The notes beneath the pieces were generated by a model. That model was not told where the DNA came from. It saw nothing but the letters and a program-made list of their open reading frames with translations, and made no database searches. Below are positions 20,977 through 38,238 of a DNA stretch of 64,000 bases, one piece after another (within the stretch, counting starts at the first letter, position 1; each line of letters opens with the position of its first letter). Both the position numbers and the translations under genes were made by a program. The stretch covers positions 7,440 to 71,439 of the forward strand of contig DYSB01000001.1 of NCBI GenBank assembly GCA_020726405.1, written 5' to 3'. The stretch is from Acetofilamentum sp. Lineage in GTDB: Bacteria; CAIWAD01.

Positions 20977-22677
20977 CTAGAAGTCTTCCACCGTGGCACG
21001 CTTCACTTCCGCCAGCGTCGTGATTCCATTCATGGCTCGGCTCAGGCCCGCGTAGCGCAGGGAGATCATGCCGTGTTCCTTGATGGCCACTTCGCGGATG
21101 CGCTCCTGGCTGGCATTGTCATAGATCAGCTTGCGGATGTCCTGCCGCACTTCCAGCACCTCGAAGATGCCGGTCCGGCCGCGATAGCCGGAATTGCGGC
21201 AATGCGGACAACCCTTGCCGGCGTAGATCGCCTTGCCCGTGAACTTGTCCGGATCCTCGTGGATGGCCAGCCAATCCTCGGGTGTGGAGATCTTCTCCTC
21301 TTTGCAGTGGGCGCAGATCCGGCGCACGAGGCGCTGGGCCATCACCAGGTTCAGGCAGCTGCCCACCAGGAAGGGCGGAACGCCCAGGTCGATGTAACGC
21401 GTGATGGTGGAGGGCGCGTCGTTGGCGTGCAGGGTGGTGAAGACCAGGTGGCCGGTCAAAGCGAACTTGATCGCGATGTCCGCCGTCTCCTGGTCGCGAA
21501 TTTCACCGATCAGCAGGGTGTCCGGGTCCTGACGCAGGATGGAGCGCAGCGAGGCGGCGAAGGTCAGGCCGATCTTCTCCCGCACTTGCACCTGGCTGAT
21601 GCCCTCCACCTGATACTCCACCGGGTCTTCCACCGTGGTGATGTTCGAGGTGATGGAACGCACCTCGCTCAGCGCGGCGTAGAGGGTGGTGGACTTGCCC
21701 GAGCCCGTCGGGCCGGAGATGATCACCATGCCGTAAGGCTGGGTGATCCAGTGGCTGAATTTGACGTGGTCGTCGTCGTTGAAACCCAAGTTGCGCAGGC
21801 TGAACATGAAGCCCGACTTGTCCAACAATCGCAGCACCACCTTCTCGCCGAAGACCGTGGGCAGGATGCTCACGCGGACGTCCACCAGGCGGTCCTGGGT
21901 CTTGATGGAGAGGCGGCCGTCCTGGGTCAAGCGCCGTTCGGCGATGTTGAGCTTGGAGATGATCTTGATGCGGCTGACGATGCCCGCATGGCTGCTGATG
22001 GGAATGCTCATGGCCTCCATCAACACGCCGTCGATGCGGTAGCGGATGCGCAGCACGTTTTCCTGGGGCTCCACGTGGATGTCCGTGGCGCGCTCCTGGA
22101 TGGCCTGGGTGAACATCTGGTTCACCAGGCGCACCACCGGGCTGTCCGCCAGGTCGCGCTCGACTTCCAGCCCGCCTTCCTTGTCGTCCGCGTCGGGATC
22201 GGCCACGAACTCCATCTTCGAGATGGTGTCATGGATTTCCGTCGAGCGCCGGATCTTGGTGTAGAGCCGGTCCACGGCTTCGTCGATGGTGCGTTCGCCG
22301 CCCAGCCGGGCCTGGATGGGCATGGTCACCGAGCGCTTGAGGCCGTCCAGCACCACCAGGTCGTCGGTGTCGGCCATGGCCACCACCAGCAGGCCGTTCT
22401 CGATGCAGATGGGCACCGCGCGATTGGCCTTGGCGAACTCCTCGCTGACCTTGATCAGCGCGTCGTCGTCCGCCAGCAGGATGCGCTCCGAGGAGACCCA
22501 GTCCACGCCCAACTGCTCGGCCAGGCCTTCCACCAACTGGTCCTCGCTGAGCAGGTTCAGGTCCAGCATGACCTGACCGATGCGCTTGCCCATGTAATTC
22601 TGGCTGATGGCTTGCCGGACCTGATCCTGGGTGACGTACCCCTTGCGGACCAGGATTTCGCCGATCTTTTCAAACAT
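20977..22677 (-). CDS. pilB: type IV pilus assembly ATPase
   Basis: 566 aa GspE-family: Walker A GPTGSGKSTT, Asp box, His box, tetracysteine CAHC...CPHC. Confidence 0.95.
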   Translation of the reverse strand: MFEKIGEILVRKGYVTQDQVRQAISQNYMGKRIGQVMLDLNLLSEDQLVEGLAEQLGVDWVSSERILLADDDALIKVSEEFAKANRAVPICIENGLLVVAMADTDDLVVLDGLKRSVTMPIQARLGGERTIDEAVDRLYTKIRRSTEIHDTISKMEFVADPDADDKEGGLEVERDLADSPVVRLVNQMFTQAIQERATDIHVEPQENVLRIRYRIDGVLMEAMSIPISSHAGIVSRIKIISKLNIAERRLTQDGRLSIKTQDRLVDVRVSILPTVFGEKVVLRLLDKSGFMFSLRNLGFNDDDHVKFSHWITQPYGMVIISGPTGSGKSTTLYAALSEVRSITSNITTVEDPVEYQVEGISQVQVREKIGLTFAASLRSILRQDPDTLLIGEIRDQETADIAIKFALTGHLVFTTLHANDAPSTITRYIDLGVPPFLVGSCLNLVMAQRLVRRICAHCKEEKISTPEDWLAIHEDPDKFTGKAIYAGKGCPHCRNSGYRGRTGIFEVLEVRQDIRKLIYDNASQERIREVAIKEHGMISLRYAGLSRAMNGITTLAEVKRATVEDF

Positions 22678-25728: not shown

Positions 25729-27177
25729 TTACTTGTCGTTATCCATGATCAGGTCGTCCAGGCGCAGTTCGTCCTCGACCTCCTGGATGTTGGCCGGCAG
25801 CGGCTCGGTCCAGGTGCCTTCGGGCATGAGGATGTGCGGGGTGATCTGGATGACCAGGTCAGTCTTCGAGATGCGCTCCTCGTTGGAGCGGAACAGGCCG
25901 CCAAGGAAGGGCAGCTTGGAGAGAATGGGCATGCGATAGACCACGCGGGTCTTCTGGGTCTCCAGCAGGCCGGCGATGATGATGGACTCGCTGTCCTTCA
26001 CGCGTACCGTGGTGGTCGCCGTCCGGCGCTTGACCTGGGGGATGTCGGCGTTGACGCCCTTCCAGTCCACGATGGAACTGACTTCCGGGGAGACCTCGGT
26101 GGTGATCCAGCCTTCAGGGTTGATATGGGGCAGGATGCTCAGCTTGATGCCGACTTCCTGCTCCTTGACCGTGATCTGCTGGGTCTGGCCGCCGGCGTTG
26201 AACACGTAGCTGACCACGTCCACCACACTGATGTTGGCGGGGCGGTTGTTCAGGGTGGCCACGCGGCTGGCCGCCAGAACGCTGGCCTTGTTGTTGCGCA
26301 GCATGAAGTTCAGTGTGACGTCGAAGGCGGTCATCTGGCGGCTGAAGTGGCCGATGTTGTCCAGGTCCAGCGGCTGGAAGGGCGCCGTCTGGGGCAGGGA
26401 GCCCTGCGGGATCTGGATCTCATTCATCCACAGCCAGGGGCCGCCGGCGTTGTTCTTCCAGCCCTGGTTGGAGGTCGGATTCCCCCAATCGTCCGGGATC
26501 ATCCAGTCCTGCCGGACGGTCCCGTTCTCGGCCAGGATGTTGGTGATCTTGTTCAGCTTGCCCCAGTCCACGCCCATCAGTTCCTGGTCGCCCACGACCA
26601 CTTCGATGAGCTTGGCCTCAAGCATCACCTGGGGCGCCGGGCGGTCCACCCGGGCGACCACGTCGCGCACTTCCTCGAGCACCTTGGTGGAGGTGCGCAG
26701 GATCAGCGCGTTGCCGCTGGTGTCCACCTGGGCCAGCTTGGTCATGTCCTGGACCATCTTCAGCACTTCACTGGCCGAGACGTAGTTCAGCGGGATCACG
26801 TAGCTGTTGAGGCCCACCTGGGTCTGGATCTTGGCGGGATCGGCCACCAGGAAGCTGTTGCCCACTTTTTCGTAGGAAAGACCCGCCGCGCGCACCACCA
26901 GGTCCAGGGCTTCCTGAACCGGCGTGTCTTTGATGTGCAGCGAGATGCGGCCGAAGTCGTTCTCCTTTTCCTGGCTGAGCTCGGAGCCGGTGACAATGTT
27001 GTAGCCTGACTGGCGCGCCAGAATGGCCAGAATGTCCGCCAGATTGGCATCCTGGGCGTCAATGCTGACCCGGTTGTCCAGACTGGGAGTGACGGCCAGG
27101 GCCGTCGGCGCGAGCCAGCACGAGGATGCCAGCAGGATGCCTCCGCAGCAGATGGAAAGGAGGGATCGTTTGGTCAT
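25729..27177 (-). CDS. pilQ: type IV pilus secretin (short form)
   Basis: 482 aa. Signal MTKRSLLSICCGGILLASSCWLAPTALA, secretin-N domains, and a C-terminal secretin core (VVYRMPILSKLPFLGGLFRSNEERISKTDLVIQITPHIL). Confidence 0.88.
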   Translation of the reverse strand: MTKRSLLSICCGGILLASSCWLAPTALAVTPSLDNRVSIDAQDANLADILAILARQSGYNIVTGSELSQEKENDFGRISLHIKDTPVQEALDLVVRAAGLSYEKVGNSFLVADPAKIQTQVGLNSYVIPLNYVSASEVLKMVQDMTKLAQVDTSGNALILRTSTKVLEEVRDVVARVDRPAPQVMLEAKLIEVVVGDQELMGVDWGKLNKITNILAENGTVRQDWMIPDDWGNPTSNQGWKNNAGGPWLWMNEIQIPQGSLPQTAPFQPLDLDNIGHFSRQMTAFDVTLNFMLRNNKASVLAASRVATLNNRPANISVVDVVSYVFNAGGQTQQITVKEQEVGIKLSILPHINPEGWITTEVSPEVSSIVDWKGVNADIPQVKRRTATTTVRVKDSESIIIAGLLETQKTRVVYRMPILSKLPFLGGLFRSNEERISKTDLVIQITPHILMPEGTWTEPLPANIQEVEDELRLDDLIMDNDK

Positions 27178-27210
27178 CGGGGTCTATCTCCGTGTTTCAG
27201 TGAATTCGAC

Positions 27211-27744
27211 CTAGAATTCGAAGTTGCCCTGGGACAGGCGCTTGGCCAGATCCTTGGTGGCGGCTTCCACCTTGAGGGTCAGGGATTGGCCGTTGCCGTT
27301 CAAGCGGACTTGATCGCGACCAATGTCCGCCACCTGGTAGCCCTCGAAGCGGTCACCCGCGGACACCACGTGGTTTTTGTTGCGCAGCCGGATGATCGCC
27401 CGGGGCAGGTCGCCGCTGATGATGCAGGACAGCCGGGGCTTCTTCTCCAGGGCAGCGAGGAAGTTCTTGTCGTCCATCATGATGTTCTTGGAGATCACCA
27501 CGCGGGACAGTTCCAGCGGATCGATCCGGCTCTCGAAGACGAAGGTCTGGCGCTCCTTCAAGCGGGCCTCCAGTTCGTCCACCGTGCTTTGCAGGCGCTG
27601 GTCGCTGCCCACGGTGATGTCCGGCTTGGCCTTCAACTCGGCCACCTGCTGGTGCAGGCCCCAGGCCTGCCAGCCGAACCAGCCAATGGAGACGAAGAAG
27701 AGGGTGATCAGCAGATTCCAGAACAGCTGGTTGTAGGTTTTCAT
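27211..27744 (-). CDS. pilP: PilP-like pilus assembly protein
   Basis: 177 aa: N-terminal TM, a coiled-coil, and a C-terminal beta domain. Positioned between pilO and pilQ as in canonical pilMNOPQ operons. Confidence 0.55.
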   Translation of the reverse strand: MKTYNQLFWNLLITLFFVSIGWFGWQAWGLHQQVAELKAKPDITVGSDQRLQSTVDELEARLKERQTFVFESRIDPLELSRVVISKNIMMDDKNFLAALEKKPRLSCIISGDLPRAIIRLRNKNHVVSAGDRFEGYQVADIGRDQVRLNGNGQSLTLKVEAATKDLAKRLSQGNFEF

Positions 27745-28448
27745 TTGCCCGCCTCCTTGGGGCTCTTGCCGGTTGCCTGCCCGACAGCCTGTACGTCGGA
27801 ATCGACCTTGGCACTGCCGCCCGCGTTGGCGCGCGCGCTGGCGGCCGGCTGATTGCCCGGCTCGTCCCCGGAGGCAACGGCGTCCGTGTCCTGGTCACTG
27901 CGCACCAGCGTCAGGGTGGACATCTTGATGGTGAAGTCATGCTTCTTCAGGTCGTCGAAGGTCCGGGCGAAGTTCAGTTGGACCAGGTCGTTGCTGACCT
28001 TGAAGAACTCCATCGTCACCAGACGGCTGTCCTTCTCCAGTTCGTTGAGCAGTTTGCCGAACTGGGTGAAGTTGCCCTTGAAGGAGACCTGGTAGGGCGT
28101 GCGGATGTACTCGGAGATGTTCTTGTCCCGGGGATAGGTCTTCATGTCGGTGATTTCGCAGCCCAGGCTGTTGAGCCGGCCGATGAGGCTGTTGAGGAAA
28201 TCCAGGCTGGCCTCCTCGGTCAGGCCGTCGCGCGTGGATCCCGCCAGGTTCTCGGAGATCAGGTTGGACACGCTGCGCAGCTCGCTGGCCAGGATCTGGG
28301 CGCTGATGAGCTTTTCCTGATGGAATTTCAGCTCGGCGTCCAGTTCGGCGATGCGCTGCGGTTTGGCGATCACCACGCTGCCGAAGAGCCAGCTCATGAA
28401 CAGCGCGAAGCCAATCAGCAGCACGTATCCGGTGATGTTGCGTTTCAT
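27741..28448 (-). CDS. pilO: type IV pilus assembly protein PilO
   Basis: Single TM (ITGYVLLIGFALFMSWLFGSVVIA), a coiled coil, then a ferredoxin-like domain. Start taken at the internal ATG MKRNITGY (28448); the track ORF extends to 28526. Confidence 0.7.
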   Translation of the reverse strand: MKRNITGYVLLIGFALFMSWLFGSVVIAKPQRIAELDAELKFHQEKLISAQILASELRSVSNLISENLAGSTRDGLTEEASLDFLNSLIGRLNSLGCEITDMKTYPRDKNISEYIRTPYQVSFKGNFTQFGKLLNELEKDSRLVTMEFFKVSNDLVQLNFARTFDDLKKHDFTIKMSTLTLVRSDQDTDAVASGDEPGNQPAASARANAGGSAKVDSDVQAVGQATGKSPKEAGK

Positions 28449-28468
28449 TCGGGGCTTCCTTTGCTGTC

Positions 28469-29077
28469 CTAGGATTCCGGAGTGATCGAGGCGTCCTTCG
28501 CCAGGAAGCGCGGCAAGACCTTGCACTGGATTTCGAAGAGCAGGGCCTTCTGGTCATGGCTGATGATGTCTTGGCTGGAGGCGAACTGCACGCTCTCGAA
28601 GTCCTGGTTGAAGAGCTGGTTTGCCTTGAGCTGGTCCACAAAGGCCATGATGTTGTCGATGGGATCCTGTCCCTCGCGCACCTTGTGGATGCCCACGACG
28701 TACAGGTAGCCCTTTTCGAAGCGCACGCTGGTCAGGGCCATGTCACGGGAGACTTCCATGCCCAGGCCCATGACCTTCTGGGTCCAGAGCAGGCGGCTCT
28801 TCTCCAGCTTGGCCAGTTTCAGGATGTCCCGCTTGGACAGCTTGTTGCCCGTGTCCGTCAGCTGCTGCAGGTCGGCTTTGACCTTTTCAATCTTCGCCTG
28901 CTTGTCGGCGATCATCTGGTCCAGCTGCCGGTTCTCCGCCCAGGCCATCCAGCCCACGCCGATGGAGACCAGGGCAAACACGATGAGGAGGGCCCAGCGC
29001 TGGTTGTCCAGCTGCTGCGCGATGCGCGCGGCCTTGTCCTCGCCCTTGTTCAGGTTGATGCGATAGATGTGTTGCAA
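28469..29077 (-). CDS. pilN: type IV pilus assembly protein PilN
   Basis: 202 aa; N-terminal cytoplasmic tail MQHIYRINLNKGED, a TM helix and a periplasmic coiled coil. Confidence 0.8.
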   Translation of the reverse strand: MQHIYRINLNKGEDKAARIAQQLDNQRWALLIVFALVSIGVGWMAWAENRQLDQMIADKQAKIEKVKADLQQLTDTGNKLSKRDILKLAKLEKSRLLWTQKVMGLGMEVSRDMALTSVRFEKGYLYVVGIHKVREGQDPIDNIMAFVDQLKANQLFNQDFESVQFASSQDIISHDQKALLFEIQCKVLPRFLAKDASITPES

Positions 29078-29078
29078 C

Positions 29079-30137
29079 TCAGTCCCTCCTCAGCGCCAGG
29101 CCCACGCAATGGGCGAATTGCGGTCCTCGCGCCCCGGCCGGAGCGCCTTCCATTCCGGCCAGCGGATCCCAGATCTCCACGGGCAGGGCGAACTTGTCGG
29201 CCAAAAGCTCGGGCAGGCCGGGCATGGCCGCGCCGCCGCCCGTGAGCAGCACTTTGCCGAAGTCGCTCTTGCCGGTCTCCTTGGCGTAGAAGCGCAACGT
29301 GCGCCGCACTTCGTCCAGGAAGTCCTCGATGACCGTGCGCTGCTGCAGGGCCAGCGCGGGTTTGCCGTCACTGCCGGCGCCGTGGAAGGCTTCCACGCCC
29401 TGGCGGCACTTGCGGGTCTCGGCCTCTTCCAGGGTGATGGACTGCTGGCGGGCCAGGTCCTCGCTCAGGTGGAAGCCGCCGATGGGGATTTCGCGGTAGA
29501 ACACCCGGCTCTGGTGCCCGGTGACGATGAACTGCGTGCCGCGGGCGCCCAGGCTCAGGAAGAGCACCAGGCCCTGGTCGGGCAGTTCCTGCGTCATGTT
29601 GTAGCTGTTGAGCAGGGCCAGGGGCTCGAGGTCCACCACGCCTGGCTTGAAGCCCGAGTCCTTGAGGATGGCCTCGTGCCAGCCGTACATCTTGCGCGTG
29701 GTGGCCACCAGCAGGATCCGGGACTTCTGCGGATCCTCGGGATCCTCGCCCAGGCTCTGGTGGTCGATGATGGTGTCGGAATCGTCCAGGGGCAGGTGCT
29801 TGCGAGCTTCGAAGATCAGGCTGGAGGCCAGCTCCTCATCCGACATGCGCACTGAGACGATTTCCTTCATGCTGGTGGCCGGACCACCCAGCGCCGACAC
29901 CAGGAACTTCACCTTGCCGGGATTGATGCGCATTTCGCTCATCAGCTCACGCAGGGTGAGCAAGGTCTCGGCACGGCGCAGCTTCTTGGGCTCGTAGCCC
30001 GTCTCGCCGCGGATCTCCCGCACCCCGGCCTTGAGGATCCGGGGAGTTTTGTGATGGGACTCGCACAGCACCGCCTTGATGGAGTGCGTGCCGATGTCAA
30101 GCCCCAGCGTTTGATTGGACCTTCCACCGAAGAACAT
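29079..30137 (-). CDS. pilM: type IV pilus assembly protein PilM (actin-like ATPase fold)
   Basis: 352 aa; LGLDIGTHSIKAVL FtsA/actin-like start; typical PilM length. Confidence 0.92.
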   Translation of the reverse strand: MFFGGRSNQTLGLDIGTHSIKAVLCESHHKTPRILKAGVREIRGETGYEPKKLRRAETLLTLRELMSEMRINPGKVKFLVSALGGPATSMKEIVSVRMSDEELASSLIFEARKHLPLDDSDTIIDHQSLGEDPEDPQKSRILLVATTRKMYGWHEAILKDSGFKPGVVDLEPLALLNSYNMTQELPDQGLVLFLSLGARGTQFIVTGHQSRVFYREIPIGGFHLSEDLARQQSITLEEAETRKCRQGVEAFHGAGSDGKPALALQQRTVIEDFLDEVRRTLRFYAKETGKSDFGKVLLTGGGAAMPGLPELLADKFALPVEIWDPLAGMEGAPAGARGPQFAHCVGLALRRD

Positions 30138-30174
30138 GCGCAGTGTCCTTGCTATTGCTGATCGCCCGAAAAAC

Positions 30175-32052
30175 TTACTCGTTCAATTCCGTCTGCCGCA
30201 GGCTGCGCCAGCGGTCGTAATCCGGCACCACCATCTCCGTCGCCACATCCTGGGCGCCGCTGTCGTAGGTCACGCGGAACCAGACCGGCGGCCCGCCGGA
30301 GAGGAAATTCTCGTCGTAGCGGTAGTTCTTCTGCTGATAACCGATCCAGGCCTGGCCCCAGGGTCCCACCGGGTCGCGGAAGATGAAGCCGCGGTGGGTC
30401 TGGACGATGGAGCCGCAGATGTGGATCGTCCCGCGCCGGTCGGCCAGGTCGGTGGAGCCGAGGCAGTCCGGCCGGAAGCCGCCGGGCACGTTGTCCCAGA
30501 CGGTGACGTTCTGGTTGGCCAGGCCGAAACAGCCCTCCACTTGGGGTGAGGGCGCGGGCACCGTGGCCCCCCAGGCCGTGGTCTTCCAGAATTCCGCCTC
30601 GAAACTGCAGCCCACGGCGAAAATGGCCGCGGTGATGATCACGTCCCGCCGGCCCTGGCTGCAGAGGTTGCCGATGTTGCTGTCGATGCCCGGATCGAAG
30701 TCCAGGCCACACTCCACGCCCGGGGTCAGCATGCCGTTGGCGAAGCCGTTGGCCAGCGTAGCGGCCACGATGATGTCCTTCTCGCAGGCCAGCCCGATGC
30801 GGTTGGGGCTGCCCAGCGGGACCATGCCGAAGGGCGTGTTCTCCGCGGGCGGGTCGCCCGGGCAGGGCCCCAGCACCGTGTCCTCGGTGATGATGTTGTC
30901 CATGATGAACATGCTGTCGCTGGAGAGCACGGTGACCTTGCCGCGCACGATGCCTTCCAGCCGGCAGACGCCCTTGACGTAGATCAGCTCGCGGCCCGCC
31001 CCGGTGGGCAGGTACTTGGTCTGCCAGTCCAGCCCGCCGCCGAGGACGAAGAGCGTGTCGCCCCCCGGCCCCAGGCTGTCGGCGATGTACTGGGCCACGT
31101 GGTAGCGGCTGCGGTCGAACTTGAGGTAGGTGGTCACCGGATGCTCGTTGCCGCTGTCGAGGCGGATTTTGTCCTCGTAGGTGTGGCTGGGCTGGCGCTG
31201 TTCCTTGATCTGGTCGATGGCGCGATCCGGCGGCCAGGCGATGCGCTGGTAGGGAATGATCCAGCCGCCCTGGAAGACTGACGGGTACAGGCCCTCGACC
31301 AGATTGATCACCGCCGGCTCCGTCTGGCTGAACAGGCCGTAGAAGATCGGGTTGCCCGCCGGGGACATCTCGGCGGCGCCGTTGATGTGCACGCGGCCGT
31401 AGATGCGTTCGCCCACGCCGAAGCGGACGGGGTTGCCCTCCGGGCCGATCTCGCCGTTGGAGAAATACATGAAGCGCGAGAAGTCCCCGAAGGTGACGCC
31501 CACCGCGCTGCGGTGCATGACGGAATGGTCGCGGCCCCGGTCGTCGCGCCAGGTCACCTCGCCCTGGGCGGACACGAAGTAGTAGGGCTTGGAACTGGAG
31601 ACGTCGAAGACCTTGTCCATCTTCAAATCGCGGTAGTTGAAGCGGAAGCCGTGCGCCGAATTCCCCTCCATGTAGGCATCGGCGAGGATGTCGTTGAGGT
31701 CGTTGGGCTCGATCCGGTTGTCGTTTTCGGAGCCCGCATCGGCCAGCTCCGGGTTCTGCATGAAGCGCGGCAGTCCGTGAACGGCCACGGCGTACTCCGC
31801 CGTGTAGCGGGCGTAGACCTGGGCGCGCTCGCGCATCAGCTGGAAGCGGTGCGAGCGGTTCTGCATGAAGTGCGAGGTGGCGATGCTCAGGGCCACCATG
31901 CTGAGGATGGCCGTGAGCAGCAGGATGGCCACACCACTGTCGCCCGAGGCGGCCCAGCGCAGGCTGGGACGGCGCTGCTTGAGTTCCTTCATGGCGGATT
32001 CCTCCCTCGAGGTCGGATGGAAGGCGGTTCCGGGCCGGCGGGGCGCGCTCAT
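30175..32052 (-). CDS. large membrane-anchored pilus-locus protein with Cys-rich C-terminal domain (PilY1-position analogue?)
   Basis: 625 aa. Chosen over the overlapping Arg/Gly-rich alternative frame 30152..32062. ATGA overlap with the upstream pilin-like gene at 32049-32052. N-terminal TM (GVAILLLTAILSMVALSIATS); the last ~200 aa hold ~8 Cys (GPCPGD, GLACEKD, VECGLD, GNLCSQG, RPDCLG, HICGS). Confidence 0.65.
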   Translation of the reverse strand: MSAPRRPGTAFHPTSREESAMKELKQRRPSLRWAASGDSGVAILLLTAILSMVALSIATSHFMQNRSHRFQLMRERAQVYARYTAEYAVAVHGLPRFMQNPELADAGSENDNRIEPNDLNDILADAYMEGNSAHGFRFNYRDLKMDKVFDVSSSKPYYFVSAQGEVTWRDDRGRDHSVMHRSAVGVTFGDFSRFMYFSNGEIGPEGNPVRFGVGERIYGRVHINGAAEMSPAGNPIFYGLFSQTEPAVINLVEGLYPSVFQGGWIIPYQRIAWPPDRAIDQIKEQRQPSHTYEDKIRLDSGNEHPVTTYLKFDRSRYHVAQYIADSLGPGGDTLFVLGGGLDWQTKYLPTGAGRELIYVKGVCRLEGIVRGKVTVLSSDSMFIMDNIITEDTVLGPCPGDPPAENTPFGMVPLGSPNRIGLACEKDIIVAATLANGFANGMLTPGVECGLDFDPGIDSNIGNLCSQGRRDVIITAAIFAVGCSFEAEFWKTTAWGATVPAPSPQVEGCFGLANQNVTVWDNVPGGFRPDCLGSTDLADRRGTIHICGSIVQTHRGFIFRDPVGPWGQAWIGYQQKNYRYDENFLSGGPPVWFRVTYDSGAQDVATEMVVPDYDRWRSLRQTELNE

Positions 32053-32690
32053 TCCCCATCACCGAGGTTTTGCTGACGCATTTCCTGGATGTGCTTGTTG
32101 GGAACCGTGACGATGCGGCGGAAGGAGCGGCTGACCCGCTGCTCCTGCTCCCGATCCTCCACCTCCAGGGTCAGCAGCACTTCCGTCAGGATGTTGGTGA
32201 TGCGCGAATTGACGAAGGGCCGATCTTGATAGGGCCGCAGGCGGAAGTCCGTCACGTAGACGCGGAAGCGCTTGCCGTTGTTGATGCGCGGATCCAGCTG
32301 GGGGGGCGGAAAGTCGTCGATCCATTCCGGCCGGATGCCATTGTGCTGGATGATCACCTTGCGCTCGCCCTCCCGCGAGAGGGCGGTTTCCACCTGGCGG
32401 CCGGTGTTGAAGGAGCCCAGAAAGTTGAACTCGATGTCCTCCTTGGCCCGTCCGCCGGCATTGGCGTTGCGGGTGACCTCATGGGCCGCGCCGAAGGAGT
32501 CGCAGGCTTCGGTCAGGATCTGGTCCGCGTAGAAGTGGAGGTCGTTGAGGATCTTGTCGCGGGCCATCTGGCGGGCCTGGACGATCAACACGGTGGTCAG
32601 GCCCAGCACCATGACGCCCATCATGGAGATGGAGACCATCAGCTCCATCAGGTAGATGCCCCGCTCGGAACGCAGTCGACAGGGCTTCAT
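32049..32690 (-). CDS. type IV pilin-like protein (minor pilin), paralogue 1
   Basis: Starts at the internal ATG (32690): MKPCRLRSERG|IYLMELMVSISMMGVMVLGLTTVLIV. This is the prepilin peptidase motif (Gly, then Glu at +5, then a hydrophobic helix). The track's upstream extension is junk. Confidence 0.75.
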   Translation of the reverse strand: MKPCRLRSERGIYLMELMVSISMMGVMVLGLTTVLIVQARQMARDKILNDLHFYADQILTEACDSFGAAHEVTRNANAGGRAKEDIEFNFLGSFNTGRQVETALSREGERKVIIQHNGIRPEWIDDFPPPQLDPRINNGKRFRVYVTDFRLRPYQDRPFVNSRITNILTEVLLTLEVEDREQEQRVSRSFRRIVTVPNKHIQEMRQQNLGDGE

Positions 32691-33439
32691 GTGGACTCCC
32701 CTCTGACCCTGGACGGGTCGAATGAGCGGTTGAAGCGGTTCGTGGGGGGCCACAAGGCCGTATTGGGCCGGAGACGGTCCCGCTGCTCGCGCTCGCGTTC
32801 CCAGAGCGGGGTGCGCAGGCGCAGCAGGGCGGCGTTGGGCAGGGAGACCACGCGGCGGTACTCCCGGCTCAGGCGCTGACCGTTGTCGCGGTCCTCCAGC
32901 TCCAGCACCAGCCGGAGCTCCACCAGATCCTGCCAGAGCACGTAGGGCATGTGCCACTGGCGGTCCGGGTAATCGCCCACCGTCAGCTCCCGCACGCTGA
33001 CGCGCTGGCGCCGGCCATTGCCGCGCCGGGGATCCAGTTCGGCCGGCGGGAAGTCGTTGCACCAGTCCAGCCGCTGATTGTTGCGCAGGATCAGCACGTT
33101 GCGCCGCTGATTGAGCAGCAGGCGGGTCTCCAGGGTGCGGCCCAGGTTTCGGTAGGCGATGCCGCGGAACTCCAGCTCCTCCGAAAAGCGGGCACCGGTC
33201 AAGCTGTTGGGCAGCACGCGGCTGGCCTGGGCGGCGGCGGCGGCGGCTTCATCCAGCACGGCGTCGGCGTAGAAATACAGGTCGGTGAGCACTTTGTCCT
33301 GGGCCAGCTGCCGCGCTTGAACCACCAGCAGGGTGGCCATGCCCAGCACAACCACGCCGAGGAGCGCCACACCGGCCAGCATCTCCACCAGGGAGACACC
33401 GGCGTCGGAGCGCTGCGGAGCGTGGAGCCTCATGGTCAT
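32687..33439 (-). CDS. type IV pilin-like protein (minor pilin), paralogue 2
   Basis: MTMRLHAPQRSDAG|VSLVEMLAGVALLGVVVLGMATLLVV, again G/xxxxE. Shares QARQ(M/L)A(R/Q)DK(I/V)L(N/T)DL(H/Y)FYAD with paralogue 1, so it is a tandem duplicate. Confidence 0.75.
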   Translation of the reverse strand: MTMRLHAPQRSDAGVSLVEMLAGVALLGVVVLGMATLLVVQARQLAQDKVLTDLYFYADAVLDEAAAAAAQASRVLPNSLTGARFSEELEFRGIAYRNLGRTLETRLLLNQRRNVLILRNNQRLDWCNDFPPAELDPRRGNGRRQRVSVRELTVGDYPDRQWHMPYVLWQDLVELRLVLELEDRDNGQRLSREYRRVVSLPNAALLRLRTPLWEREREQRDRLRPNTALWPPTNRFNRSFDPSRVRGEST

Positions 33440-33444
33440 CCTTT

Positions 33445-33900
33445 CTAGCGCAACTGGTTCACGGCCGTGCGCAGGGTTTCGCGGCGCATGGCGGTGCCTT
33501 CGGGCCAGGTGATGGACACGGTGATCTGGAAGGCGTCGATTCCCGCCAGACGGATCAGGTCGATCTGCGGCGCCGGTGCGAATTCCGCCAGCACGTAGTC
33601 GCGCTCCCGGCGGTTGCCCGTGTCCAGGGCCACGAAGTGCCGCGCGCTGGGCCGTGGATGGTTGATGCCGAAGACATAGACCGAGGCTTTCCAGAACTCG
33701 ATCTCGCCCTGCAACTCCTCCAGGGCCCGCATGCGGCGGTATTCCTGCTTGGTCAGCTCGTGGGCCTGGTAGATGTTCTTCACCAGGGCCGTGGAGGTGA
33801 CCATCAGCAGCAGCACGGCGATGAGCAGCTGCGGGTAGAAGGCGATGCCCGTCTCCCCCAGGATCCAGGCCCGCCGGGCCGGCGTCTCGTGTGGCCGCAT
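33445..33900 (-). CDS. small membrane protein of the minor-pilin module
   Basis: 151 aa. One TM (IAFYPQLLIAVLLLMVTSTALV) but no canonical G/xxxxE motif. Located between pilT and the pilin-like genes. Confidence 0.45.
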   Translation of the reverse strand: MRPHETPARRAWILGETGIAFYPQLLIAVLLLMVTSTALVKNIYQAHELTKQEYRRMRALEELQGEIEFWKASVYVFGINHPRPSARHFVALDTGNRRERDYVLAEFAPAPQIDLIRLAGIDAFQITVSITWPEGTAMRRETLRTAVNQLR

Positions 33901-33924
33901 GGTCCCTCCTTCCCGTCGCCGGGA

Positions 33925-34992
33925 TCAGACGTAATGGTCGCCCAGCTCCAGATCGAAGACCTTGGGATTCTCCGCGATCTGGATGGCTTCCTGCCGGTCC
34001 ACCTTGCCCTCGCGCACCAGCCGCAGCAGGTCGCCGTCCAGCGTGTGCATGCCGGACTTGGACCCGCTCTGGATCACGTTGGGAATCTGGAAGATCTTGT
34101 CTTCGCGGATCAGGTTGCGCACCGCCGTGGTGGCCACCATCACCTCCGTCACCACCACGCGGCCCTTGCCGTCCTTGGTGGGCAGCAGGCGCTGGGCCAC
34201 CACCGCCTCCAGCGACTCGGACAGCATGGAGCGGACCTGCTGTTTCTGCGCACTGGGGAAGATGTCGATGATGCGGTCGATGGTCTTGGTCGCGCTGGAA
34301 GTGTGCAGGGTGGCCAGCACCAGGTGGCCGGTCTCGGCCGCTGTCAGCGCCAGCTGCACGGTCTCCAGGTCGCGCATCTCACCCACCAGGATCACGTCCG
34401 GGTCCTCGCGCAAGGCCACGCGCAGGGCGCTGGCGAAGGAATGCGTGTTGGCCCCCACTTCGCGCTGGTTGATCATGCAGTTGCGCGAGGTGTGGAAGAA
34501 CTCGATGGGATCTTCAATGGTGATGACGTGCTTCTCGTAGGCGTCGTTGATGATGTCCACCATGGCGGCCAGGGTGGTGGACTTGCCCGAGCCCGTGGGC
34601 CCGGTGAGCAGCACGAGGCCGCGGTCCTTGAGGGCCAGTTCCGTCAGCACCTTGGAGGGCAGCCCCAACTCGTCCAGGGACTTCAGGGATTCCGGGATGG
34701 TGCGGAAGACGGCCGAGGTGCCGAGGATCTGCTGAAAGAAGTTGACGCGGAAGCGCGCCACGCCTTCCAGCTTGTAGGAGAAGTCCACCTCGTACTTCTC
34801 CTCGAAAACCTGCTTCATGCGGGAGTTCATCACCCGGGAGCCGTAGGCGTCCATCTCCTCCTGGGTCATCACTCCCATGTTCAGCTTCTTCAGCGAGCCG
34901 TGCAGGCGGATCATGGGCGTGTTGCCCACCGACAGGTGCAGGTCAGAGGCGCCCTGCTCCACCGCAAAAGTCAACAGCTGGTCGATTTCCAC
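33925..34992 (-). CDS. pilT: twitching motility retraction ATPase
   Basis: 355 aa; Walker A GPTGSGKSTT, PilT signature AIRNLIREDKIFQIPNVIQSG. Confidence 0.95.
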   Translation of the reverse strand: MEIDQLLTFAVEQGASDLHLSVGNTPMIRLHGSLKKLNMGVMTQEEMDAYGSRVMNSRMKQVFEEKYEVDFSYKLEGVARFRVNFFQQILGTSAVFRTIPESLKSLDELGLPSKVLTELALKDRGLVLLTGPTGSGKSTTLAAMVDIINDAYEKHVITIEDPIEFFHTSRNCMINQREVGANTHSFASALRVALREDPDVILVGEMRDLETVQLALTAAETGHLVLATLHTSSATKTIDRIIDIFPSAQKQQVRSMLSESLEAVVAQRLLPTKDGKGRVVVTEVMVATTAVRNLIREDKIFQIPNVIQSGSKSGMHTLDGDLLRLVREGKVDRQEAIQIAENPKVFDLELGDHYV

Positions 34993-35100
34993 GCGGACCC
35001 CAGTGCTTGGTCAGGATTGAGAAGTGGCATGTCCGGCGGTCCGGGCATTCCAGCCACTTGCCCCGATGTGTGGTCGGGAACGGTCAGGTTGAGCGTGCCG

Positions 35101-35136
35101 ATCCGGCAAACGGCCAGCCGTCCCGAAGGACGGCCG
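35101..35136 (-). terminator. GC hairpin 3' of pilA (weak U-tract)
   Basis: GCCGTCC-CGAA-GGACGGC 7-bp stem at 35117-35134. On the minus strand it is followed by UGGCCGUUUGCC. Confidence 0.35.
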
Positions 35137-35150
35137 GCCCGTGCGAATCG

Positions 35151-35558
35151 CTACTCGCCGGCAGTCTTGGGGAAGCCGTAGCCTTCCCAGCGCCCTTCCT
35201 GGATGTTGAAGGTGACCACGTTGCCCGCGCCGCCCTTCATTTCGGCGGTGGAGGTGGCCTGGATCTGCTGGTCGCCAACCAACTGGAAGGTCCACTGACG
35301 CAAGGTGGCGTTGTCCAGCTCCAGGTAGCCGCCCTCGGACATGATCGTCAAGTCCGACGGCCACGAGCCCGTCTCCTGCTCGTAGATCTTGGCCGCGTTC
35401 AGGATGGCGTTGATCTGCACCTTGGCATCGGACGCGCGGGCGCCGCGAACGGCCTGGATGTACTTGGGCACGGCGATGGCAGCCAGAATGGCCACCAGGA
35501 TCACCACGATCAGCACTTCGACCAGGGTAAAGCCGCGTTCGTCTTTGCGGAACTTCAT
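35151..35558 (-). CDS. pilA: type IV major pilin
   Basis: Internal ATG at 35558 with GGGGAGA RBS: MKFRKDERG|FTLVEVLIVVILVAILAAIAVP. Textbook type IVa prepilin leader and N-terminal helix; 135 aa. Confidence 0.9.
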   Translation of the reverse strand: MKFRKDERGFTLVEVLIVVILVAILAAIAVPKYIQAVRGARASDAKVQINAILNAAKIYEQETGSWPSDLTIMSEGGYLELDNATLRQWTFQLVGDQQIQATSTAEMKGGAGNVVTFNIQEGRWEGYGFPKTAGE

Positions 35559-35816
35559 TCCATGTCTCCCCGAGTTGAAAGGTTTCTGAGTGGCCCGCCG
35601 GCCCTTGCAGGCCTGGCCCCATTGAACGATTTCCAAAGTAGGTACCTGCCCAGAGGCAGACAAGGACAAGGATTCGGAAGGGCGCTTTCCCCTCCCCCGG
35701 CCGCGTTCATCAAACCTTACACCTTGCCTTGGCCCTTAACATGCCGCCGCCCCAGCCTGACGGACGGGCGACCCGAATCAGGCTTTCAGCCCGGTTTTCG
35801 GCCATCCCGAAACAGG

Positions 35817-35832
35817 TGCAAGAATTCGGCCA
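35817..35832 (-). promoter_or_regulatory. candidate sigma-54 (-24/-12) promoter upstream of pilA
   Basis: Minus strand reads TGGCCGAATTCTTGCA, i.e. GG-N10-GC with TTGCA at -12. About 250 nt upstream of the pilA ATG. pilA is sigma-54 dependent in several bacteria. Confidence 0.25.
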
Positions 35833-35949
35833 ATAAATGCCCTTGTTGCTTCAGGAGCGGGAACCTGGGCCGGCCTCCAGAGCGCGGCGGCCCCGGGTCG
35901 GAACCGGGAGACGGGACGGGAATCGCGGCAACTTGGCGCGGGCAGACTC

Positions 35950-38238
35950 CTAGAATTCCAAGGTCAGCCCGTAGACCGGCATGATTTTCCAGCCATACCA
36001 GGTTTTGACTTCCCCATCCGTGTGGTGCCAATAGCGGTAGGCTACATTTTTCTGGCTGTAGGCGTTCTCGATGTCCCAGAACTGGACCAGGTTGAAGCGC
36101 CGGCCCTGGATCCGGTGGTCCAGCCGCAGATCCAGCCGGTGATAGACGGGCAGCCGCTCGCTCTGGTAGTCCGCCAGGTTCAGGCGCGTGTCCCCGGCCA
36201 ATGCACTGGCTGCCACATCCACGGGCGTCGTGGGCAAGCCGCCACTGATCCGCCATTTCAGACTCAGCTCCCAGCGATGGTTGGGAATCCAGCCCAGGAT
36301 CAGCGTGCCCATGTGCCGGCGGTCGAAGGGTCCGGGCAGCCAGGGGCCGCTCGGGGTTTTGTAGCCGGAGACGGACCAGGAGTAGCTGGCGCTGCCATAG
36401 GTTCCCGCACTCAGCTTTTTCTGCGCCAGCAGTTCGAGGCCGTGGCTGTGGCCCGTCCCGCTGGATTCCAGCCGCCCCAGGTAGGTGTAGCCGTAATAGC
36501 TGCCCGCGTCCGCCAGGGGCACGTCCGGGGAGAGCTGGCTGACGGGCAGGTCCAGGTAGCGGCGCACGAACAGATCCAGCGAGACCAGCCACTCCGGCCG
36601 GGGCCGCCACTCCAGCCCGGCCTGGGCATGCCGGCTTTTCATGCTGGTGACCGCGTCCCGCTCGGCGCTTTGCACGCGCCAGGAGACGGGCAGGCCCTGG
36701 GCGTAGCCGCCCGCCGCCAGGTTGAGGGCCCAGTTCGGCGCCAGCTCCTGGCGCAGGGAGGCGCGCGGCTGCAGGTCCAGGCTGCCCGTGTCGTCGTCGT
36801 GGTCCAGCCGCAGGCCCAGCCGCAGGGAGCGGCCGGGGGCGGGGCGCCATTCCGCCTGGGTCAGCGCCCAGAACCGCTGCTGGCCGTGGCGCAGATCCAG
36901 GCGTTGGTCGGGCAGGCTGTCGCCCCAGCTGGAGCGCATCTCCGCCAGGCGCACATCGTGGACGGAGACGCTGTGGTCCAAACCCAGCCCCCATGTCAGG
37001 TCCAGCCGCCGGCCCAGCCGGACCCGCTCGTGGGCCAGGCTGAGGGTCTGTTCGCGGGCCTCGTTGCGAATCCGGTTGCTGCCGTTCCAGGCGGAGAAGT
37101 CGTGGTTGAAATCCAGGTGGTTGAGGGTGAGGCGCCAGGACTGCAGCCGCCCCTCCGCCGAGCTCCGGCGCAGGGCCAGGCCGCCGGCCAGCGTGCGCTG
37201 CAACTGGTCCACGTTGTAGTTCTGGTCCGGGTCCTCGGCCGTGGTGAAGCGGATGCGGTTCACGCCGCTAAGCAGCAGGCCCGACAGCCGCCAAGCGGGC
37301 GCCACGTCCAGCGTGAACGAGCCGCCCAGGTCGGCCATCACCGGCACGTTGGAATAGCCGATCTGGCTCTTGAGCAACTCCAGATAGCTGCGCCGCGCCC
37401 CGGCCAGCCAGGAGCCACGCCCGCCGGCCAGCGGGCCTTCCAGCTCCAGACCCAGTCCGGCCATGCTGAGGAAGGCTTCTCCCTGGGTGCGCTCCCGGTC
37501 GCCCTCGCGGAAGCGGATCTCCATCACCGAGCTGAGCCGGTCGCCGTAGCGTGTGTCGAAGCCGCCCGGCGAGAAATGCACCTGGTCGATGAAGTCCACG
37601 TGGATCATGCCCATCGGGCCGCCCGTGCCGCCCTGGCTGCCGAAGTGGTTGAGGTTGTGGATGGGGTGGCCGTCCACCAGGAAGAGGTTTTCCAGCGGGT
37701 TGCCACCGCGGACGATGATGTCGTTGCGCTGGTCGTCGGCGCCCATCCCCACGGAGGGCAGCGACTGCACCAGGCGGTTGACGTCCTCCGCGCTGCCCGG
37801 CGCCCGGCGGATCTCTTCGCGCCCGAACTCCTGGGTGACGGCGCCCGTCTGCTGGCGCCCGGAGAAGTACTCGGGACGCACGGTGACGTCCGTCAGCCGC
37901 AGATCCGTGGGAGTCAGCCGCGCCAGCAGCGGATCCTCCCGCCCCGGCCGCGCCACCACGTCCGTCAGCACCACGCTGCCGTAGCCCAGCCGGCTCACCT
38001 GCAGGGAGTAGGTTCCGGCAGGCACCTGGAGGATGCGGAAACGCCCCGCCAGATCGGTGGCGGCGCCCAGGCGTAGGCCCAGCACTTCCACGTTGGCCCC
38101 GGCCAGGGGTTGTTCGGTGCGGGCGTCCAGCACGGTTCCCGCCAGGCTGCCGCGGGGATCCGCCTGCTGGGCGGCGGGCAGCGGGTGCCCACCCAACACA
38201 AGGAGCAGGCTCAAGAGGAAGAACAAGGCGCGCCGCAT
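35950..38238 (-). CDS. TonB-dependent-receptor-like outer-membrane protein with N-terminal carboxypeptidase-regulatory-like domain
   Basis: 762 aa. Signal MRRALFFLLSLLLVLGGHPLPAAQ, CarboxypepD_reg-like GTVLDARTEQPLAGANVEVLG, plug region, beta-barrel ending in aromatic ...YGLTLEF. Confidence 0.8.
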   Translation of the reverse strand: MRRALFFLLSLLLVLGGHPLPAAQQADPRGSLAGTVLDARTEQPLAGANVEVLGLRLGAATDLAGRFRILQVPAGTYSLQVSRLGYGSVVLTDVVARPGREDPLLARLTPTDLRLTDVTVRPEYFSGRQQTGAVTQEFGREEIRRAPGSAEDVNRLVQSLPSVGMGADDQRNDIIVRGGNPLENLFLVDGHPIHNLNHFGSQGGTGGPMGMIHVDFIDQVHFSPGGFDTRYGDRLSSVMEIRFREGDRERTQGEAFLSMAGLGLELEGPLAGGRGSWLAGARRSYLELLKSQIGYSNVPVMADLGGSFTLDVAPAWRLSGLLLSGVNRIRFTTAEDPDQNYNVDQLQRTLAGGLALRRSSAEGRLQSWRLTLNHLDFNHDFSAWNGSNRIRNEAREQTLSLAHERVRLGRRLDLTWGLGLDHSVSVHDVRLAEMRSSWGDSLPDQRLDLRHGQQRFWALTQAEWRPAPGRSLRLGLRLDHDDDTGSLDLQPRASLRQELAPNWALNLAAGGYAQGLPVSWRVQSAERDAVTSMKSRHAQAGLEWRPRPEWLVSLDLFVRRYLDLPVSQLSPDVPLADAGSYYGYTYLGRLESSGTGHSHGLELLAQKKLSAGTYGSASYSWSVSGYKTPSGPWLPGPFDRRHMGTLILGWIPNHRWELSLKWRISGGLPTTPVDVAASALAGDTRLNLADYQSERLPVYHRLDLRLDHRIQGRRFNLVQFWDIENAYSQKNVAYRYWHHTDGEVKTWYGWKIMPVYGLTLEF

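What the first reader, a model, noticed from the sequence alone, without database searches (positions are those of the whole stretch)
30175..33900. Non-canonical minor-pilin module upstream of pilM: two tandem pilin-like paralogues, a small TM protein and a 625-aa Cys-rich membrane protein
Both pilin-like ORFs carry textbook prepilin-peptidase sites (RG|IYLMEL and AG|VSLVEM, Glu at +5). They share an internal block (QARQxAxDKxLxDLxFYAD), so they are tandem duplicates, yet at 213 and 250 aa they are longer than major pilins.

Downstream, coupled by an ATGA overlap, is a 625-aa protein with one N-terminal TM and a C-terminal region holding ~8 Cys. It occupies the position that PilY1-type tip adhesins take in other organisms but shares no obvious motif with them.

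Together with the 151-aa TM protein this looks like a priming or tip complex of unusual composition. Two large Cys-rich proteins in the locus (this one and the 985-aa lipoprotein) would be compatible with a disulfide-dependent extracellular assembly.
Basis: partly seen in the sequence, partly recalled or inferred. Interest (0 to 1): 0.62.

Follow-up and report, generated by a model that had tools for sequence, protein, structure and literature searches.

The report
Minor-pilin tip set with solenoid cap
The four genes upstream of pilM all appear to encode minor pilins of a type IV pilus, including a large tip subunit carrying a beta-solenoid domain like Thermus ComZ, so this is a divergent member of a known design in an uncultured phylum, not a new kind of machine.

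Summary
The ORFs, the prepilin motifs, the paralogy (43% identity over 203 aa, E 5e-45) and the Cys cluster are real. All four genes lie in a complete type IV pilus locus of a Candidatus Delongbacteria genome and are under purifying selection.

The reading "non-canonical" does not hold.
- The "151-aa TM protein" belongs to a pilin family. A remote relative has a canonical RRG|VTLLEL site.
- The order small, J-like, solenoid pilin matches Thermus TTHA1218-1219-1220 (ComZ).
- The same three-gene set recurs in distant lineages.
- The 250-aa gene is a lineage-specific extra copy.

Most likely this is a GspI/J/K-like priming and tip complex whose solenoid cap replaces PilY1. One side observation may deserve follow-up: the solenoid is 46% identical to tandemly arrayed T9SS cargo proteins of the same phylum.

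The parts
33445..33900 (-). 151-aa small minor pilin, in the GspI/PilV position. Degenerate prepilin leader ...GETG|IAFYPQLL, with Pro rather than Glu at +5.
   Evidence: In 17 homologues, Gly18 (-1) and Phe21 (+3) are invariant and Gln24 (+6) is at least 90% conserved. The family is homologous over 125 columns (hhalign 96.5%, E 7e-10) to the 171-aa protein at the same position of remote locus L012. That protein has a canonical RRG|VTLLEL site and a weak precomputed Pfam N_methyl hit. There are no Pfam or PDB sequence hits. Three of 17 members weakly match ComGE. No structure model was made. dN/dS is 0.02.
32687..33439 (-). 250-aa GspJ-like minor pilin. Lineage-specific extra paralogue with leader ...SDAG|VSLVEM and a roughly 40-aa C-terminal extension.
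   Evidence: 43% identical to the 213-aa protein. Pfam N_methyl E 5e-4. Present only in the window and in the 91%-identical sister contig L004. Five more distant loci have a single J-like gene that is closer to the 213-aa copy. dN/dS is 0.23.
32049..32690 (-). 213-aa GspJ/PilW-class minor pilin, the conserved orthologue. Leader ...SERG|IYLMEL.
30175..31992 (-). Tip pilin of ComZ/PilX/GspK type: 605 aa from M21. The longest ORF reaches 32052 (625 aa). The residue numbers below use the 625-aa numbering.
31483..31932 (-). Pilin-like domain of the tip pilin (residues 41-190): alpha1 helix and three long beta strands.
30268..31482 (-). Beta-solenoid domain (residues about 191-595). It holds all 9 Cys and begins with the DUF4900-like segment.
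30178..30267 (-). C-terminal tail (residues 596-625): a last beta strand plus a helix. Specific to the pilin-borne form.
   Evidence: The model has a strand at 603-609 and a helix at 612-623. D611, Y612, W615 and R619 are invariant. Clear similarity to the T9SS paralogue fades after about residue 592. This fits a domain inserted before the last pilin strand, but it was not verified on coordinates.
35151..35558 (-). Context: major pilin PilA, 135 aa from MKFRKDERG|FTLVEV.
   Evidence: Pfam N_methyl 7.5e-9. Homologues of 135-137 aa start at this Met.
33925..34992 (-). Context: PilT-type retraction ATPase.
   Evidence: Pfam T2SSE 2.7e-53 over 355 aa.
25729..30137 (-). Context: pilM, pilN, pilO, a pilP-like gene and the secretin pilQ, immediately downstream.
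   Evidence: PilM_2 1.4e-35, weak PilO, Secretin 3.7e-38.

Best explanation
The four genes encode the minor pilins that prime and cap the type IV pilus of this Candidatus Delongbacteria bacterium. They form a GspI/J/K-type (PilV/W/X-type) set built like the Thermus thermophilus TTHA1218-TTHA1219-ComZ group.

Proposed mechanism (inferred by analogy, not shown here):
1. Each protein inserts into the inner membrane through its hydrophobic N-terminal helix.
2. A prepilin peptidase cleaves each after the conserved Gly.
3. The helices of the small pilin (151 aa), one or both GspJ-like pilins (213 and 250 aa) and the large pilin bundle on the PilMNOP/PilC platform.
4. The large pilin lacks Glu5 and carries a roughly 400-residue, probably disulfide-stabilised beta-solenoid too bulky for the filament body, so it sits on top.
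5. PilA subunits are then added underneath by PilB, and PilT retracts the fibre.

The solenoid cap would act as the tip plug or adhesin. It takes the role that PilY1/PilC has in proteobacteria. Its ligand is unknown.

The 250-aa gene is a recent extra copy of the J-like subunit, either an alternative or an additional subunit.
For: Shown:
- The locus is a complete T4aP set: pilA, pilT, pilMNOPQ, pilB, pilC.
- The large protein's leader keeps Gly-1 and lacks Glu5 in the orthologues with a complete N-terminus and in most of the remote relatives aligned in A3.
- The 151-aa family keeps Gly-1 and is homologous to a canonical prepilin in remote locus L012.
- The gene order small, J-like, solenoid pilin, followed by pilM, is conserved in Delongbacteria loci L001 and L003-L008 and in L012. 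The small/J-like/large order also appears on short contig L013, and a pilin-like gene precedes the large gene on L014.
- All four genes are under purifying selection.

From the literature:
- Thermus TTHA1218 is GspI-like and TTHA1219 is GspJ-like. They lie next to TTHA1220, which is ComZ (PMC5131608).
- ComZ is a GspK-like pilin with an inserted ice-binding-like solenoid and was argued to be a tip pilin (PMC6561018).
- Cyanobacterial PilX proteins carry the same solenoid, which was proposed to replace PilY1 (bioRxiv 10.64898/2026.02.12.705559).
Against: - Both models are of only moderate confidence (pLDDT 71-72, from 18-20 closely related sequences).
- Profile searches against PDB sequences found nothing: no ComZ, GspK, GspJ or GspI.
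- Pfam PilX_N, T2SSK and T2SSJ do not match.
- The 151-aa protein was not modelled, and it lacks Glu5. Two subunits would then lack Glu5, whereas known sets have one.
- No GspH/FimU-type adaptor pilin is seen in the window.
- Cleavage, assembly and tip location are all inferred.
Confidence: 0.75

Rival explanations
1. The same architecture serves as a competence pilus tip. The solenoid pilin would be a DNA receptor, as ComZ is in Thermus, and the module would serve DNA uptake rather than adhesion or motility.
For: ComZ is the best structural match. ComZ binds DNA together with the neighbouring pilin PilA2 (PMC6561018). In cyanobacteria one solenoid-PilX set is dedicated to competence (bioRxiv 10.64898/2026.02.12.705559).
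Against: There is no sequence similarity to ComZ, so the DNA-binding lysines cannot be mapped. This is the only pilin set seen next to the only pilMNOPQ in the window. The solenoid is 46% identical to T9SS-secreted surface proteins, which points more to surface or ligand adhesion.
Confidence: 0.15
2. The large protein is not part of the pilus. It would be a membrane-anchored (signal-anchor) surface adhesin or carbohydrate-active beta-helix enzyme that merely sits in the operon.
For: Its solenoid domain also occurs as ordinary T9SS cargo with a cleavable signal peptide. Beta-solenoids are often hydrolases or lyases (noted in PMC6561018). Foldseek and the sequence libraries give no pilin assignment.
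Confidence: 0.08
3. The locus encodes a type II secretion-like pseudopilus, a secretion piston, rather than a surface pilus. The four genes would then be true GspI/J/K pseudopilins.
For: The best structural matches of the J-like and pilin-like domains are T2SS pseudopilins. PilA gives sub-threshold GspG hits, and PilC and PilB also score well on the GspF and GspE models.
Against: A PilT retraction ATPase and the PilM/N/O/P-like/Q arrangement are present, and no GspC/L/M-type matches were seen. Thermus T4P minor pilins are likewise closer to T2SS pseudopilins (PMC5131608). A 400-residue solenoid cap is known on pili (ComZ, cyanobacterial PilX); I know of none on a T2SS pseudopilus (my own knowledge).
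Confidence: 0.07

Closest known systems
Thermus thermophilus pilA2 (TTHA1218), pilA3 (TTHA1219) and comZ (TTHA1220) group; ComZ structure 6QVI
   Different: No detectable sequence similarity. Here the set sits between pilT and pilM rather than next to the major pilin gene. The small pilin has lost Glu5. The J-like gene is duplicated. The solenoid is Cys-rich, whereas the word disulfide does not occur in the main text of the ComZ paper. DNA binding is unknown.
Cyanobacterial PilX families with a beta-solenoid (PilX-Com, PilX-EPS/HpsA), bioRxiv 10.64898/2026.02.12.705559
   Same: A Glu5-less PilX-type pilin with a bulky solenoid. In cyanobacteria the solenoid is inserted before the last beta strand and was proposed to replace the PilY1 plug. 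It works with PilV/PilW-type partners.
   Different: Different phylum, and no sequence link was tested. The cyanobacterial sets include FimT/U-type adaptors, and none is seen here.
T2SS GspI-GspJ-GspK tip complex (3CI0) and P. aeruginosa FimU-PilV-PilW-PilX
   Different: GspK carries an alpha-helical insert rather than a solenoid. The Pfam/NCBIfam models for these families do not reach threshold. There is no GspH/FimU homologue and no PilY1.
Pfam DUF4900 (PF16241)
   Same: Weak matches at the start of the solenoid in 19 of 20 orthologues (best E 1e-5) and in 18 of 50 remote relatives (best E 2e-11).
   Different: The window protein scores 13.6 bits against a cut-off of 29.4. The family has no described function.
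PilY1/PilC tip adhesins
   Same: A large protein encoded with the minor pilins. Its presumed role is tip plug or adhesin.
   Different: PilY1/PilC are not pilins. They have a beta-propeller C-terminal domain, often with a vWA domain. Neither gives any match here, and the fold found is a solenoid.

Membership tests
Type IV pilin-like proteins (class III signal peptide) | Gly at -1 of the cleavage site, followed by a hydrophobic helix of about 20 residues | tested here: met
   213 aa: RG|IYLMEL. 250 aa: AG|VSLVEM. 151 aa: TG|IAFYPQLL, with Gly invariant in 17 sequences. Large protein: SG|VAILLL, with Gly at least 90% conserved.
Type IV pilin-like proteins (class III signal peptide) | Glu at +5 (absent only in cap subunits such as GspK and PilX) | tested here: inconclusive
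   Present in the 213-aa and 250-aa proteins. Absent in the large protein, as expected for a cap. Also absent in the 151-aa protein (Pro or Ala at +5), although its remote homologue in L012 has it.
Type IV pilin-like proteins (class III signal peptide) | Long alpha1 helix packed on an antiparallel beta sheet | tested here: met
Type IV pilin-like proteins (class III signal peptide) | Cleavage and N-methylation by a prepilin peptidase | not testable with these tools
   Needs biochemistry. The window was not scanned for a prepilin peptidase gene.
GspJ / PilW-class minor pilin (213-aa and 250-aa proteins) | GspJ fold: pilin core plus a second beta sheet | tested here: met
GspJ / PilW-class minor pilin (213-aa and 250-aa proteins) | Sequence match to the T2SSJ, PilW or GspJ family models | tested here: not met
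   Only N_methyl and sub-threshold pilin-like hits in Pfam and NCBIfam.
GspK / PilX-type cap pilin (large protein) | Pilin leader without Glu5, and encoded last after I-like and J-like genes | tested here: met
GspK / PilX-type cap pilin (large protein) | Sequence match to the T2SSK, GspK or PilX_N models | tested here: not met
   Only an NCBIfam GspK hit at E 0.025 (14 bits against a cut-off of 130), limited to the N-terminal helix. No such Pfam hit.
ComZ-type solenoid pilin | Large triangular beta-solenoid resembling DUF3494 ice-binding proteins, fused to a GspK-like pilin domain | tested here: met
ComZ-type solenoid pilin | [quoted passage not shown] | tested here: inconclusive
   The order of elements fits: helix, three strands, solenoid, a last strand at 603-609. 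The pilin-specific tail is invariant and is not matched in the T9SS paralogue P0026.
ComZ-type solenoid pilin | Binds the neighbouring small pilin and DNA | not testable with these tools
   Needs biochemistry or a complex prediction.
PilY1 / PilC tip adhesin | C-terminal beta-propeller (Pfam Neisseria_PilC), often with an N-terminal vWA domain, and no pilin leader | tested here: not met
   No such Pfam match at E up to 1. The fold is a solenoid with a pilin leader.
Pfam DUF4900 (PF16241) | Score above the gathering threshold (29.4 bits) | tested here: not met
   The window protein scores 13.6 bits, E 0.09. Weak hits occur in 19 of 20 orthologues and reach E 2e-11 in remote relatives, so the relationship is likely but formal membership is not met.

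The most novel reading that the evidence does not exclude
The pilus-tip solenoid and the tandemly arrayed T9SS cargo proteins of Delongbacteria are one adhesin module deployed through two export routes. One copy sits on the retractile pilus tip, and four to seven paralogues per array are displayed on the cell surface by the T9SS. The T9SS copies would probably derive from the ancient pilin-borne solenoid. If so, pilus tip and cell surface would recognise the same ligand, or each other, coupling T4P retraction to T9SS-displayed adhesins. In addition, the small subunit's loss of Glu5 would mean a tip complex with two non-salt-bridging subunits.
Probability: 0.15. Interest if true: 0.55.

Novelty: new member of a known kind. 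Interest (0 to 1): 0.3.

Why it matters
It turns four "hypothetical proteins" of an uncultured candidate phylum into an interpretable pilus priming and tip set.

It also extends the ComZ/cyanobacterial-PilX design, a solenoid-capped pilus without PilY1, to another deep lineage. The design appears in a wider family of at least 532 protein clusters at 50% identity, of which the 50 I inspected mostly begin with a Glu5-less pilin-like leader.

It gives a likely role to the DUF4900-type proteins found in the same pilA-pilT-...-pilM position.

The practical value is for annotation and for comparative work on how pili are primed when PilY1 is absent. It does not change the current picture of type IV pili.

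Tried and rejected
- Pfam and NCBIfam scans of the four proteins and of their whole families gave only N_methyl and sub-threshold pilin-like hits.
- Profile searches of the three families and of the remote-homologue alignment against PDB sequences found nothing relevant.
- Foldseek of the large model against PDB gave no hit with E below 0.2.
- The afdb50 library was not available.
- PilY1/PilC/vWA membership was rejected: no domain match, and the fold is a solenoid.
- An enzyme or transporter reading was rejected as the primary one, because the leader, the pilin-like domain and the conserved position argue for a pilin.
- The genome-contig scan returned only five loci, all Delongbacteria-like, so it added little on taxonomic range.
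- The promoter/terminator scan of 29000-36200 found nothing above chance.
- A literature search found no prior description of Delongbacteria pili or of DUF4900 function.
- hhalign of the 151-aa family against the 213-aa and large families aligned only the leader and helix. That is too weak on its own. The link to a canonical prepilin came from L012 instead.
Full report
**What is in the sequence**

All genes of interest are on the minus strand, in this order:
- pilA: 35151-35558, 135 aa from MKFRKDERG|FTLVEV
- pilT: 33925-34992
- a 151-aa ORF: 33445-33900
- a 250-aa ORF: 32687-33439
- a 213-aa ORF: 32049-32690
- a large ORF: 30175-32052
- pilM, pilN, pilO, a pilP-like gene and the secretin pilQ: 25729-30137
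- a 985-aa protein with Big_1 repeats
- pilB and pilC

No other ORF in the 64-kb window carries a canonical G-x4-E prepilin motif. The closest public relatives are annotated as Candidatus Delongbacteria MAGs.

**Check of the observation**

The two pilin-like ORFs have Gly at -1 and Glu at +5. Both positions are at least 90% conserved in an 18-sequence family alignment. The two proteins are 43% identical over 203 residues (E 5e-45) and share the QARQ...FYAD block. They overlap by ATGA.

The large ORF has 9 Cys, all between residues 363 and 546. Four are invariant, and eight are present in at least 16 of 20 orthologues.

One point needs correction. Most orthologues begin near M21 of the 625-aa ORF (P0002 and the JGI 627-aa call carry a longer N-terminus). 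The exact 605-aa M21 form is the one deposited in public data, and GGGAGGA precedes M21. The ATGA overlap with the 213-aa gene is therefore probably not the real junction.

Compared with a 91%-identical sister contig (L004), all four genes show purifying selection. dN/dS is 0.02, 0.23, 0.15 and 0.32 for the 151-aa, 250-aa, 213-aa and large genes. For comparison, pilM is 0.11 and pilT is 0.04.

**The 213-aa and 250-aa proteins**

Sequence libraries give only the N-terminal methylation motif.

TTHA1219 was described as a GspJ-like type IV pilin (PMC5131608). Lengths of 213 and 250 aa are therefore normal for this class and are not an anomaly.

tblastn over nine related loci shows that only the window and L004 have two copies. 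Loci L001, L003/L008, L005, L006 and L007 have a single gene, which is closer to the 213-aa copy. The 250-aa gene is thus a lineage-specific duplicate.

**The large protein**

Its orthologues share a leader of the form (D/E)RG|(V/A)AILLLT, with Gly-1 conserved and no Glu at +5.

The model (pLDDT 71, pTM 0.64) has these elements in order:
- a helix at residues 39-99
- three long strands between residues 137 and 188
- a beta-rich region at residues 190-600
- a last strand at 603-609
- a helix at 612-623

ComZ is described as a GspK-like pilin domain with an ice-binding-like solenoid inserted before the last strand. It was argued to sit at the pilus tip and to bind the neighbouring pilin PilA2 (PMC6561018). 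Cyanobacterial PilX proteins have the same design and were proposed to replace the PilY1 plug (bioRxiv 10.64898/2026.02.12.705559).

Several caveats apply:
- Foldseek gave no significant PDB hit.
- Profile searches against PDB sequences found nothing.
- Only a weak GspK hit on the N-terminal helix (E 0.025) and weak DUF4900 hits are seen.
- There is no PilY1, PilC or vWA signal.

**The 151-aa protein**

It has no family hit. Across its 17 homologues, Gly18 and Phe21 (+3) are invariant, Gln24 (+6) is at least 90% conserved, and +5 is Pro or Ala.

The decisive link came from a remote relative. The profile search over 1.8 billion representatives found 532 relatives of the large protein. Most of the 50 I aligned (A3) start with a Glu5-less pilin-like leader.

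One of these, P0092, lies in a locus (L012) with this order: pilA, pilT, a 171-aa gene, a 218-aa gene, a 526-aa gene (weak DUF4900), then pilM, pilN, pilO, a fourth gene and the secretin. The 171-aa protein there has a canonical RRG|VTLLEL site. It aligns with the 151-aa family over 125 columns (hhalign 96.5%, E 7e-10).

Short contig L013 shows the same small/J-like/large order. L014 has a canonical pilin-like gene just before the large gene.

The 151-aa protein is therefore a minor pilin whose Delongbacteria members have lost Glu5. I did not model it, so assigning it to the GspI/PilV class rests on size, position and this homology.

**Interpretation**

The conserved module has three genes: a small pilin, a J-like pilin and a solenoid cap pilin. 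This order is the same as GspI-J-K and as Thermus TTHA1218-TTHA1219-ComZ.

Most likely these proteins form the priming and tip complex of the pilus, with the solenoid as cap and adhesin in place of PilY1. The steps of membrane insertion, peptidase cleavage, helix bundling, tip location and ligand binding are all inferred by analogy. None is shown here.

I considered these rivals:
- a DNA-receptor role like that of ComZ (possible)
- a non-pilus membrane-anchored adhesin or enzyme (unlikely given the leader, fold and synteny)
- a T2SS-type pseudopilus (unlikely given PilT and PilMNOPQ)

**Departures from the known examples**

- The small subunit lacks Glu5, so two subunits of the set would lack it.
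- The J-like gene is duplicated in this lineage.
- No GspH/FimU-type adaptor is seen in the window.
- The solenoid carries eight conserved Cys.
- Residues 191-606 are 46% identical to proteins consisting of a signal peptide, the same solenoid, a spacer and a T9SS C-terminal sorting domain.
- Those T9SS proteins sit in tandem arrays of four to seven similarly sized genes, per the gene calls, in Delongbacteria contigs.

The last two points are the most interesting lead. The pilin-plus-solenoid architecture is widespread, so the T9SS copies probably derive from it.

**Verdict**

The functional guess of a tip or priming complex is right. The claim of a non-canonical composition is not.

This is a divergent new member of a known kind. 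It is useful for annotation and for comparative study of PilY1-less pili, but it is not surprising to a specialist. Interest is 0.3.

Noticed in passing
window 30268-31482 (-); loci L010 1-13795 and L011 4102-11859: The solenoid domain of the tip pilin is 46% identical to proteins built as signal peptide, solenoid, a spacer of about 140 aa and a T9SS Por_Secre_tail. Per the gene calls, these sit in tandem arrays of 4-7 similarly sized genes of about 630 aa in Delongbacteria contigs. Only P0030 and P0029 (and, by contig name, P0027 and P0031) are confirmed paralogues. The conserved Cys are retained in P0026.
   Followed up: partly
window 22760-25717 (-): A 985-aa protein with a lipoprotein-type signal (LMWTAC|D), 17 Cys and Big_1 repeats lies between pilQ and pilB. 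A protein of about 990-1000 aa holds the same position in L001, L003 and L004, and a Big_1 protein lies downstream in L012. It may be a conserved outer-membrane accessory of this pilus type.
   Followed up: partly
window 20977-22677 (-): The PilB N-terminus matches the MshEN domain and the MshE-type cyclic-di-GMP-binding motif (NF053729, E 1.5e-12). This suggests c-di-GMP control of pilus extension.
   Followed up: no
locus L012 4937-14315: A distant lineage, whose large protein P0092 is a remote relative found only by the profile search (E 6e-27), has the same locus plan: pilA, pilT, a 171-aa pilin, a 218-aa pilin, a 526-aa weak-DUF4900 protein, then pilM, pilN, pilO, a fourth gene and the secretin. 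This plan therefore extends beyond Delongbacteria.
   Followed up: partly
locus L009 5956-7691: A second, solitary copy of the large pilin gene, in the same MAG as L007, is split into 433-aa and 261-aa ORFs by a frameshift and has no pilus genes around it. It is either a pseudogene or an assembly error.
   Followed up: no
window 35151-35669 (-): The longest pilA ORF (172 aa, TTG start) overextends the gene. Homologues are 135-137 aa and start at MKFRKDERG, which gives a 9-residue leader. The mature pilin has no Cys and gives sub-threshold GspG-like hits.
   Followed up: partly
window 35950-38238 (-): A TonB-dependent-receptor-like protein (CarboxypepD_reg plus Plug domains, 762 aa) lies directly upstream of pilA, and also in sister contig L004. 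More distant relatives instead have a 1640-aa Peptidase_C25/FlgD_ig protein near pilA.
   Followed up: no
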